A stretch of DNA of 64,000 nucleotides from a virus (IMGVR_UViG_2706794662_000007), one strand, 5' to 3'. Counted from the stretch's first letter, positions 16,524 through 17,637 are shown. Program-made: numbers and translations. The notes: generated from the sequence alone by a model not told the origin.

Positions 16524-16680
16524 TTAACACGTTGCTTTACGGACTAGCGGATAAGCGAAGTAGATCGCCAGACCAATGAGGACGCCATCAGAAATGACAG
16601 ACATCATCTTTCCCGTAAAATCCACCAACACCGCCATCACCAGAAGAGCAATGACGGTCACAAGCCGGAATCTCTCAAGC
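16524..16680 (-). CDS. small hydrophobic peptide (52 aa), translationally coupled to TerB-like gene
   Basis: below ORF-track cutoff; TAATG stop/start overlap with upstream gene; two predicted TM stretches. Confidence 0.3.
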
Positions 16681-16681
16681 A

Positions 16682-17107
16682 TTAGAGATAAGCATCCAGT
16701 GACAACTGAAGCGCCTGGGCGATCTTTTTCAGCGCCTGCTCTTCTGGTTCATCAATGCCGTCTTGGTCGGCAATATCAAGGCACAGACAAAGTACATCTA
16801 CTGCATCATCAGTCCCGGCCACATCCGCCAGCTCACGTAAAGCCTGGGCATTAGCACGGCGCGGTGAGGCTTCGTATTGAGCGCGGATATTGGCGCTCAT
16901 CTGGGCTATCTCACCAGCAAAAGGAGAAAATGCAGGCAGAGCTGCAATTGTTTTCTCAAGAATGGAAATTTCTTTTGCATCGCATGTACCGTTGGCATAG
17001 GAGATCATGTACCCACCCCACACGGTGGCTTCAACCGCATCACGGTTCTCCATTTTTTTGACTTCGATAACTGCTTTACGAGTTTTCTTTTTGAAGAAAC
17101 CTAACAT
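16682..17107 (-). CDS. TerB-like domain protein
   Basis: 141 aa, DIADQDGIDEPEE-type acidic motif typical of TerB family as recalled. Confidence 0.5.
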   Translation of the reverse strand: MLGFFKKKTRKAVIEVKKMENRDAVEATVWGGYMISYANGTCDAKEISILEKTIAALPAFSPFAGEIAQMSANIRAQYEASPRRANAQALRELADVAGTDDAVDVLCLCLDIADQDGIDEPEEQALKKIAQALQLSLDAYL

Positions 17108-17130
17108 GTGTTTTCCTTTTGTTATTGGTC

Positions 17131-17145
17131 AAAACAAGTTGTTTT
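17131..17145 (-). promoter_or_regulatory. palindromic motif AAAACAAGTTGTTTT upstream of gene 16682..17107
   Basis: perfect 7-bp arms about 25 nt upstream of ATG. Confidence 0.5.
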
Positions 17146-17200
17146 CTAGTTAAATAAATTGCTTACGCAAAGACGGTCAATGCATATGCACTAACAACCG

Positions 17201-17389
17201 TCAGAAATAACCAAGTACCGAACCGACTGGAAAAATAAAAATCCCAACTACACGAGCCAAGGTCATGCCAGCCTGAAACTGGAGATCGCCAGAGCAAACA
17301 AGTTTTATAATGTTCGATACCCAACCGGCGGCCATGAGGGCAAGAATTGCCAGCCAAATTTTTCCAAAGTGATTTGAAAACCAGTTCAT
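17201..17389 (-). CDS. small membrane protein (62 aa)
   Basis: two hydrophobic segments; ATGA overlap with upstream ORF. Confidence 0.35.
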   Translation of the reverse strand: MNWFSNHFGKIWLAILALMAAGWVSNIIKLVCSGDLQFQAGMTLARVVGIFIFPVGSVLGYF

Positions 17390-17637
17390 ACAACCGCCTT
17401 AGTCACAGCATGATCCTGAGTAACTGGATGAACTTGAGGTATCGCATCCACCGTCATCCCATCCAGAGTGACAGGTCGCTCTACTGGAGTGGTGGTAATT
17501 GTCGTCGACGGAGGTGTGGTGATGGATGAATCCGGCATCAAAAGGCTCTGACCGGCTGGAACGGCTACCGTCGCCAGTGAAACTATAATGAGAACGTAGG
17601 CCATTGGTTTCAGCCTCTTTCTTTGAAAATTTTCCAT
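17386..17637 (-). CDS. small secreted Thr/Pro-rich protein
   Basis: AAGGA SD, N-terminal signal-like hydrophobic segment. Confidence 0.4.
   Translation of the reverse strand: MENFQRKRLKPMAYVLIIVSLATVAVPAGQSLLMPDSSITTPPSTTITTTPVERPVTLDGMTVDAIPQVHPVTQDHAVTKAVV

What the first reader, a model, noticed from the sequence alone, without database searches (positions are those of the whole stretch)
16524..17637. TerB-like protein co-transcribed with small membrane peptides
A TerB-domain protein is translationally coupled (TAATG overlap) to a 52-aa double-hydrophobic peptide missed by the ORF track, and the next transcription unit encodes a secreted Thr/Pro-rich protein coupled to a 62-aa membrane protein. 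Both units sit behind the AAAACAA/TTGTTTT motif. Small membrane peptides next to a stress-domain protein could be a membrane-targeting exclusion, abortive-infection or holin-like module.
Basis: inference. Interest (0 to 1): 0.5.

Follow-up and report, generated by a model that had tools for sequence, protein, structure and literature searches.

The report
Phage tciA–tciB membrane gene pair
This is the already named but functionally untested tciA–tciB gene pair of phage P1 (a TerB-type protein plus a tiny membrane hairpin), carried as a swappable accessory cassette on a known E. coli/Shigella phage-plasmid; the neighbouring small genes are a separate unit that seems to contain an unannotated overlapping gene.

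Summary
The window is an SSU5-like phage-plasmid, 100% identical over the tested 3 kb (15800-18800) to E. coli O104:H4 plasmid p09EL50. All genes of the finding lie on the minus strand. 16682-17107 encodes TciA: 80% identical to P1 TciA, Pfam TerB just above threshold, TerB-like predicted fold. 16524-16682 encodes TciB (Pfam DUF3927), a 52-aa two-segment hydrophobic peptide that starts in a TAATG overlap. RefSeq already annotates both.

The pair recurs, with TciB immediately downstream of TciA (overlapping by 1-4 nt or within a few nt), in P1-like, SSU5-like, lambdoid, N4-like and jumbo phages, and in 78 of 80 IMG/VR loci. It is a real two-gene module. Its function is known only "by homology".

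It sits in a variable slot bounded by a palindrome (AAACAAYTTGTTT). SSU5 carries ant there and another relative has nothing. The upstream unit is therefore independent.

Published RNA-seq of a 96%-identical element shows all these genes at background in lysogens. That argues against a resident-prophage Abi role and for a lytic-phase role.

Codon-position patterns support the 83-aa frame, and both frames stay open in seven lineages, so dual coding is likely.

Verdict: observation largely right; main feature already known; mechanism inferred only.

The parts
16682..17107 (-). tciA: 141-aa cytoplasmic TerB-fold protein with a basic N-terminal tail (MLGFFKKKTRK)
16524..16682 (-). tciB: 52-aa peptide with two hydrophobic segments and a conserved central VDF..MS..DG motif; its start shares one base with the tciA stop (TAATG)
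   Evidence: Pfam DUF3927 47.4 bits. phrog_1470. Hydropathy. Aligns with P1, SP-076, ChrisDB and JLK-2012 TciB. Present directly after tciA in 78 of 80 IMG/VR loci at offset -1 or -4 nt.
17132..17144 (.). 13-bp palindrome AAACAAGTTGTTT upstream of tciA, with an AAGGA Shine-Dalgarno between it and the ATG; upstream boundary of the cargo slot
   Evidence: conserved after the 62-aa gene in lineages with tciAB, ant or no cargo
16403..16415 (.). second copy of the palindrome, 18 nt upstream of the next gene (15815-16384); downstream boundary of the tciAB slot
17201..17389 (-). 62-aa two-segment membrane protein (ORF C), found only in SSU5-like elements; not part of the tciAB module
   Evidence: phrog_6006; only 10 homologue clusters, the full-length contigs being ~106-113 kb; conserved in SSU5 but absent in L194
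17386..17637 (-).
   Evidence: Substitutions by codon position A1/A2/A3 = 41/29/60, and 18/9/32 in the first 35 codons. A Shine-Dalgarno-like sequence and the same stop position in 7 lineages. phrog_15659.
17399..17893 (-). 164-aa ORF B (the RefSeq annotation): coiled-coil-like N-terminal half, then a Ser/His/Cys-rich tail ending C.SGW[DN]...CD that overlaps ORF A
   Evidence: The non-overlapping half shows a normal coding pattern, 74/47/104. The frame stays open in all lineages although P = 0.02-0.11 per lineage if only A were coding. The C-terminal motif is kept at 44-47% identity.
17923..17944 (.). GC-rich 9-bp hairpin between rnhA and ORF B; terminator-like on both strands

Best explanation
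The TerB-like gene and the 52-aa gene are tciA and tciB, the pair first named in phage P1. Here they sit on an SSU5-like phage-plasmid.

Shown:
- TciA is a soluble protein with a TerB-type helical fold. It has a basic N-terminal tail, and both halves keep the [A/S][D/N]G...E motif seen in the family alignment.
- TciB is a 52-aa peptide with two hydrophobic segments, basic ends and a conserved central VDF..MS..DG motif.
- The two genes are almost always adjacent, usually overlapping by 1 or 4 nt, across unrelated phage families.
- The cassette occupies a swap slot bounded by copies of a palindrome.
- In a 96%-identical element the genes are silent in lysogens.

Inferred:
- The tight coupling delivers TciA and TciB together. 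TciB anchors or partners TciA at the cytoplasmic face of the inner membrane, much as TerB is reported to partner the membrane protein TerC.
- The module is made during lytic development. In this element it would come from a palindrome-bearing promoter or leader; in P1 it lies between the C1-controlled ban operator and ban.
- Its most likely output is an accessory, non-essential protection of the infected cell's inner membrane against membrane-breaching competitors. These include DNA injection by superinfecting phages and pore-forming colicins, echoing the phage-inhibition and colicin-resistance phenotypes of ter operons.

Identity of the genes is near certain. The membrane-complex step is moderately likely. 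The exclusion or protection output is a best guess (about 0.35).
For: Identity:
- 100% DNA identity over 15800-18800 to p09EL50 and Shigella sonnei plasmids, annotated 'tellurite/colicin resistance protein' and 'DUF3927 family protein'.
- 80% identity to P1 TciA.
- TciB aligns with P1 TciB.

Fold.

Linkage:
- TAATG overlap in the window.
- The same pair in P1, JLK-2012 (lambdoid), SP-076 (N4-like), ChrisDB (jumbo) and a divergent SSU5-like lineage.
- 78 of 80 IMG/VR loci have TciB at offset -1 or -4 nt.

Lytic-phase, accessory character:
- Presence in virulent phage groups.
- In P1 the genes lie between the C1-controlled ban operator and ban.
- Cyrano TciA/TciB reads average 5-7 against about 96 for the putative repressor in LB lysogens.
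- P1 tciA/B/C scored non-essential (PMC10695390).
- About half of P1 subgroup 1 elements lack the operon (PMC9603915).
- Slot variability.

Membrane partner analogy: TerB is reported as an interaction partner of the integral membrane protein TerC (PMC11003894, citing Turkovicova 2016). Vibrio phage BUCT194 encodes TerB, TerC and a TciA-like gene side by side.

Exclusion idea: proposed for phage Ter proteins in PMC7824862.
Against: - No other ter genes are annotated in the matching plasmid record across the window, so ter-operon phenotypes may not transfer.
- The Pfam TerB score is only just above threshold, and no PDB TerB was found by sequence.
- The RNA-seq comes from a related element, and no induced sample was examined.
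- Promoter-like hexamers upstream of tciA are weak and were not called by the scan.
Confidence: 0.55

Rival explanations
1. Metal-homeostasis modulator. TciA, as a TerB homologue held at the membrane by TciB, binds or regulates host TerC-family transporters (such as E. coli Alx) or a metal ligand. This would tune Mn/Zn/Ca handling in the infected cell rather than exclude competitors.
For: TerB is described as the partner of TerC. A Vibrio phage carries TerB, a TerC/Alx-family gene and a TciA-like gene in a row. Conserved acidic motifs occur in both halves of TciA. Klebsiella terC is linked to zinc resistance (PMC12054061, title and abstract only).
Against: Most phages carry tciAB without any TerC. 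Metal binding was not tested. The three cysteines that are invariant in close relatives are lost in distant ones.
Confidence: 0.15
2. Resident-prophage defence. The module is a lysogenic-conversion, abortive-infection or toxin-antitoxin-like system in which TciB is a membrane-depolarising toxin and TciA is its sensor or inhibitor.
For: It is a small membrane peptide next to a putative sensor domain. It sits in a variable cargo slot like many defence islands. ter operons show phage inhibition.
Against: The genes are at background in Cyrano lysogens, whereas the TA loci and the repressor of the same element are expressed. There are no PADLOC hits. The pair is common in strictly virulent phage groups.
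Confidence: 0.1
3. Lysis-timing element. TciB is a pinholin or antiholin-like hairpin regulated by TciA.
For: Its size and two hydrophobic segments resemble small holins. In the lambdoid phage JLK-2012 the pair lies just after Q and the tRNAs; by analogy with lambdoid genome organisation this would be the start of the late transcript (inference).
Against: No endolysin or spanin lies nearby in this element, and the neighbours are replication and nucleotide-metabolism genes. P1 tciA/B/C were scored non-essential. In N4-like and P1 genomes the pair lies in early or replication regions.
Confidence: 0.05
4. Counter-defence. TciA binds a small nucleotide-like signal or a host membrane effector and so blunts a host immune system during lytic growth.
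For: TerB and TerD are predicted ligand-binding domains of a system proposed to sense a nucleoside-like signal (PMC7824862). Expression is lytic-phase, the genes are accessory, and the pair has spread widely among unrelated phages.
Against: No similarity to any known anti-defence protein was found. The obligatory membrane partner is not typical of known signal sponges. Entirely untested.
Confidence: 0.1

Closest known systems
Phage P1 tciA-tciB-tciC (within the ban operon region)
   Same: TciA is 80% identical and the same length (141 aa). TciB is homologous, with the same VDF..S..SDG core. Stop and start overlap by 1 nt in both. Both are accessory genes of a phage-plasmid.
   Different: There is no tciC here: the next ORF is unrelated and a palindrome follows. 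The genomic setting differs (SSU5-like siphovirus plasmid, its own palindrome-bearing upstream region, no adjacent tRNAs), and so do the neighbours.
TerB of terZABCDEF tellurite-resistance operons (Pfam PF05099 / COG3793; structures 2OU3, 2H5N)
   Same: Pfam hit above threshold. Predicted fold superposes over about 100 residues. Two ADG...E-type repeats are kept.
   Different: The gene stands alone with a 52-aa membrane peptide instead of TerC/TerD/TerZ. No PDB TerB is detectable by sequence. No tellurite, phage or colicin phenotype has been shown.
T4 Imm / Sp and other small early membrane proteins for superinfection exclusion
   Same: Small inner-membrane proteins made during lytic growth and dispensable in the laboratory (analogy from general knowledge, not tested here).
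   Different: No sequence similarity. TciB always comes with a soluble TerB-fold partner. An exclusion phenotype has not been tested.
Lambda Rz/Rz1 embedded gene pair (for the neighbouring ORF B / ORF A)
   Same: A short gene lies in the +1 frame within a longer one, and the embedded product is Pro/Thr-rich with an N-terminal hydrophobic segment.
   Different: ORF A has no lipobox Cys and ORF B has no N-terminal transmembrane segment. ORF A runs 13 nt past the ORF B stop. The location is among replication genes, not a lysis cassette.

Membership tests
TerB family (Pfam PF05099 / COG3793) | Profile HMM match above the curated gathering score | tested here: met
   26.2 bits against cutoff 24.4, residues 33-136; marginal but passing. 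Most close homologues in the protein collection also carry PF05099.
TerB family (Pfam PF05099 / COG3793) | TerB-like all-helical fold | tested here: met
TerB family (Pfam PF05099 / COG3793) | Two repeated acidic motifs ([A/S][D/N]G...E), the proposed ligand/metal site | tested here: met
   YANGTCDAKE and IADQDGIDEPEE in the window protein. G40, E46, A113, G117 and E122 are invariant across seven divergent phage TciA sequences. That this is the metal site is recalled from the literature, not tested.
ter operon (terZABCDEF) tellurite/phage/colicin resistance system | Co-occurrence with TerC, TerD/TerE and TerZ/TerA genes | tested here: not met
   No other ter gene is annotated in the p09EL50 stretches matched to the window (the coordinates drift by tens of nt in places).
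P1-type TciAB(C) module | TciA orthologue followed immediately by a DUF3927/TciB peptide | tested here: met
P1-type TciAB(C) module | Third small gene tciC (35-aa single-TM peptide) | tested here: not met
   The only ORF after tciB (16360-16530, 56 aa, GTG start) is unrelated to TciC and not hydrophobic.
Known anti-phage defence systems (PADLOC-DB 2.0) | Match to any defence-system protein model | tested here: not met
   No hits for any of six proteins at E <= 0.01.
Holin / lysis cassette | Adjacency to endolysin and/or spanin genes | tested here: not met
   Neighbours are rnhA, dam, an exonuclease, nrdAB, thyA and similar; no lysis genes are annotated in the matching record. The assumption that holins sit in late operons is general knowledge.
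Prophage-expressed moron / Abi | Transcription in the lysogenic state | tested here: not met
   Published RNA-seq of the 96%-identical Cyrano: CYRAN_85/86 average 5-7 normalised reads against 96 for the putative repressor and 7084 for CYRAN_43. This is a related element, not this exact sequence.
Rz/Rz1-type spanin pair (considered for ORF B/A) | Embedded +1 ORF encoding a lipoprotein (lipobox Cys), with an outer gene that has an N-terminal TM | tested here: not met
   ORF A of the window has no Cys. ORF B has no hydrophobic segment at the threshold used.

The most novel reading that the evidence does not exclude
Two linked possibilities remain open.

(1) TciA-TciB may be a widespread, lytic-phase, two-component membrane device. 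A TerB-fold sensor tethered by a 50-aa hairpin would let unrelated phages (P1-like, SSU5-like, lambdoid, N4-like, jumbo) exclude superinfecting phages or blunt host membrane-acting immunity. That would give the orphan TerB domain its first defined phage function.

(2) The adjacent conserved unit of SSU5-like phage-plasmids may contain a true dual-coding stretch of about 240 nt. It would encode both the tail of a cytoplasmic 164-aa protein and an unannotated 83-aa membrane-anchored Thr/Pro-rich protein.
Probability: 0.3. Interest if true: 0.55.

Novelty: already known. Interest (0 to 1): 0.25.

Why it matters
For the main feature, little changes. The genes are named, annotated and present in hundreds of sequenced plasmids and phages, and the sequence itself is already in RefSeq.

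Its value is as a pointer. tciAB is one of the most widely shared accessory pairs among unrelated enterobacterial and other phages (at least 553 relatives in IMG/VR), yet it has never been tested. The data gathered here narrow the sensible experiments: obligate pairing, a swap slot, silence in lysogens and presence in virulent phages.

The side result is that RefSeq's 164-aa ORF hides a second, apparently selected, +1-frame membrane protein. If proteomics confirms it, the annotation of the SSU5-like phage-plasmid group would need correcting.

Tried and rejected
- Sequence search of TciA against PDB chains found no TerB, only designed helical proteins at E about 0.2. Fold search was needed instead.
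- NCBIfam gave nothing useful and PADLOC gave nothing.
- Homologue searches for the 83-aa and 62-aa proteins found only SSU5-like elements, with no Pfam domains and no informative names. The exhaustive HMMER search with the 164-aa protein found only 17 cluster representatives. No function could be assigned to the upstream unit.
- Within-clade polymorphism counts in the overlap (34 changes) did not differ significantly from neutral expectation and could not decide between frames. Between-clade codon-position counts were informative.
- The Rfam scan of 15700-19700 gave only sub-threshold chance matches.
- The sigma-70 scan did not call a promoter on the minus strand upstream of tciA or ORF B, and found no terminator after tciB or ORF C.
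- I first suspected the S24-peptidase gene near one palindrome copy to be the repressor that binds it. Its N-terminus (MGFPSPA...) and a LexA-box-like sequence upstream suggest a UmuD'/HumD-like protein instead. The Pfam check failed because window and plasmid coordinates differ there. The protein that binds the palindrome remains unknown.
- The P1 genome paper (PMC523184) is not held.
- A naturally fused TciA-TciB protein (P0085) looks like a frameshift in an assembly. I did not use it as evidence or for structure prediction.

Full report
**What the window is.** The tested 3 kb (15800-18800) is 100% identical to E. coli O104:H4 plasmid p09EL50 and to several Shigella sonnei plasmids. It is 96-98% identical to the phages Cyrano and PhiR41_1. 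These are SSU5-like phage-plasmids. All genes in the finding are on the minus strand.

RefSeq annotates the stretch as follows:

| Window coordinates | RefSeq product |
|---|---|
| 18039-18632 | rnhA |
| 17399-17893 | hypothetical protein, 164 aa |
| 17201-17389 | hypothetical protein, 62 aa |
| 16682-17107 | tellurite/colicin resistance protein |
| 16524-16682 | DUF3927 family protein |
| 15815-16384 | hypothetical protein, 189 aa |

The Cyrano record calls the middle pair 'P1 TciA-like' and 'P1 TciB-like'.

**The TerB-like gene and its peptide.**
- The 141-aa protein passes the Pfam TerB threshold narrowly (26.2 against 24.4 bits) and matches phrog_632 strongly. It is 80% identical to P1 TciA.
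- An AlphaFold2 model is confident (pLDDT 88, six helices). Foldseek's only credible hit is 2H5N (probability 1.0).
- Across seven divergent phage homologues the conserved features are a basic N-terminal tail and two [A/S][D/N]G...E repeats.
- The 52-aa ORF starts in a TAATG overlap with the tciA stop. It matches Pfam DUF3927 and phrog_1470 'TciB-like'. It has two hydrophobic stretches flanking a conserved VDF..MS..DG core, with basic residues at both ends.

**Is the pairing more than chance?** Yes.
- The same gene order, TciA followed at once by a TciB-like peptide, occurs in P1, the lambdoid phage JLK-2012, N4-like Salmonella phage SP-076, Erwinia jumbo phage ChrisDB and a divergent SSU5-like lineage.
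- In the 80 best IMG/VR loci, 78 have such a peptide starting 1 or 4 nt before the TciA stop, in 37 distinct sequences. At least 553 relatives exist in that collection.
- P1 has a third peptide, TciC; the window does not.

**Independence from the upstream unit.**
- SSU5 keeps the 164-aa and 62-aa genes but has an anti-repressor gene where tciAB sits here.
- Locus L196 has nothing in that position. Locus L194 has tciAB but no 62-aa gene.
- The slot is bounded in every lineage by copies of a 13-bp palindrome, AAACAAYTTGTTT.
- In the window the palindrome occurs at 11 sites, far more than chance (24 strand-matches against 2.8 expected). At seven of them it lies 12-29 nt upstream of a start codon, with a Shine-Dalgarno sequence between.
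- It precedes tciA (17132-17144) and the next gene (16403-16415). It does not precede the upstream unit.
- The palindrome therefore looks like a promoter-proximal operator or leader element shared by many leftward genes. Its binding protein is unknown.

**When is it expressed?**
- In the published LF82 transcriptomes, Cyrano genes CYRAN_83 to CYRAN_87 (the 164-aa ORF, the 62-aa ORF, TciA, TciB and the 189-aa gene) average about 5-8 normalised reads in LB. The same table gives about 96 for the putative repressor and 7084 for CYRAN_43. None of the five is listed as a moron.
- In P1 the tci genes lie between the C1-controlled ban operator and ban.
- TciA/TciB also occur in virulent phage groups.
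- Together this points to a lytic-phase accessory function rather than lysogenic conversion.
- P1 tciA/B/C were scored non-essential by CRISPRi, and about half of one P1 subgroup lack the operon.

**Mechanism.**
- Shown: the fold, the membrane-peptide features, the obligate linkage, slot behaviour and silence in lysogens.
- Inferred: TciB holds or partners TciA at the inner membrane. This parallels the reported TerB-TerC partnership and fits a Vibrio phage that encodes TerB, TerC and a TciA-like gene together.
- Best guess: protection of the infected cell's membrane from superinfecting phages or pore-forming colicins. This echoes ter-operon phenotypes and an earlier comparative-genomics proposal.
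- The rivals are given with the report: metal homeostasis through TerC-family proteins, resident-prophage Abi or toxin, lysis timing, and counter-defence. No PADLOC model matches.

**The upstream unit and a likely overlapping gene.**
- In the part of B that does not overlap A, substitutions among lineages follow a normal coding pattern: positions 1/2/3 = 74/47/104.
- In the overlap the pattern follows frame A: A1/A2/A3 = 41/29/60 overall, and 18/9/32 in the first 35 codons, which encode the hydrophobic N-terminus. It is flat (13/12/9) in the last 30 codons.
- In seven lineages, down to 44% identity in B, ORF A keeps its ATG and a Shine-Dalgarno-like sequence, and its stop lies exactly 13 nt past the B stop.
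- Frame B also stays open everywhere. Synonymous recoding of A leaves it open in only 2-11% of trials per lineage.
- The B tail keeps a C.SGW[DN]...CD motif in the most distant relatives.
- The simplest reading is that both frames are maintained. Within-clade polymorphisms were too few to help.
- Database entries that fuse the B N-terminus to the A C-terminus at different points look like assembly frameshifts.
- None of A, B or C has relatives outside SSU5-like elements or any assignable function.

**Verdict.** The main feature is already known and annotated. The most useful new point is the probable unannotated overlapping gene next door.

Noticed in passing
window 17386-17893 (minus strand): The annotated 164-aa ORF and an unannotated 83-aa ORF overlap by about 240 nt in different frames. 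Both stay open in seven lineages, and the codon-position pattern in the overlap follows the 83-aa frame. Probable dual coding.
   Followed up: yes
window 360, 1925, 2811, 2862, 6705, 11841, 16403, 17132, 27349, 40888, 53319 (13-bp sites): The palindrome AAACAAYTTGTTT occurs at 11 sites, against about 1.4 expected. Seven copies lie 12-29 nt upstream of a start codon. Three copies share a longer downstream sequence (TCTACCTTTTCTTGTT.GAGAAAATAA). Likely an operator or leader element of the leftward early genes; the binding protein is unknown.
   Followed up: partly
window ~18900-19035, within the 18633-19213 gap that RefSeq leaves unannotated: The Cyrano equivalent (CYRAN_81, a 44-aa ORF call) is one of the few regions expressed in lysogens, at about 117 against about 8 for its neighbours in the LF82 RNA-seq. 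It could be a small protein or a non-coding RNA.
   Followed up: no
window ~6600-6640 (minus strand): A LexA-box-like sequence, TACTGTGTAAATGAACAGTA, lies just upstream of an S24-peptidase gene whose product begins MGFPSPA, like UmuD'/P1 HumD. This suggests an SOS-controlled UmuD'-like gene. Window coordinates here differ by tens of bases from p09EL50.
   Followed up: partly
window ~2899-6190: Host-like methionine-tRNA ligase (metG) and apbC genes are annotated inside the phage-plasmid, which is unusual cargo.
   Followed up: no
window 17923-17944: A perfect 9-bp GC-rich hairpin lies between rnhA and the 164-aa ORF and looks terminator-like on both strands. Only about 30 nt remain before the ORF start, so the upstream unit may depend on read-through from rnhA.
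   Followed up: no
window 57689-58512 (minus strand); loci L004, L108, L109: The window has a tRNA cluster (Ser, Thr, Tyr, Asn) far from tciAB. In P1, JLK-2012 and ChrisDB the tciAB pair sits directly beside tRNA genes. The recurrent association is unexplained.
   Followed up: no
window ~6780-6800 and within 13142-14755: Runs of N (masked bases) interrupt the window, including inside the DUF4942 methyltransferase-like ORF.
   Followed up: no
loci L091, L106; proteins P0149, P0155, P0157, P0159: Several database sequences carry frameshifts that fuse the N-terminal part of the 164-aa protein to the C-terminal part of the 83-aa protein, at different positions. They are most likely assembly errors, but a natural or programmed frame switch was not excluded.
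   Followed up: partly
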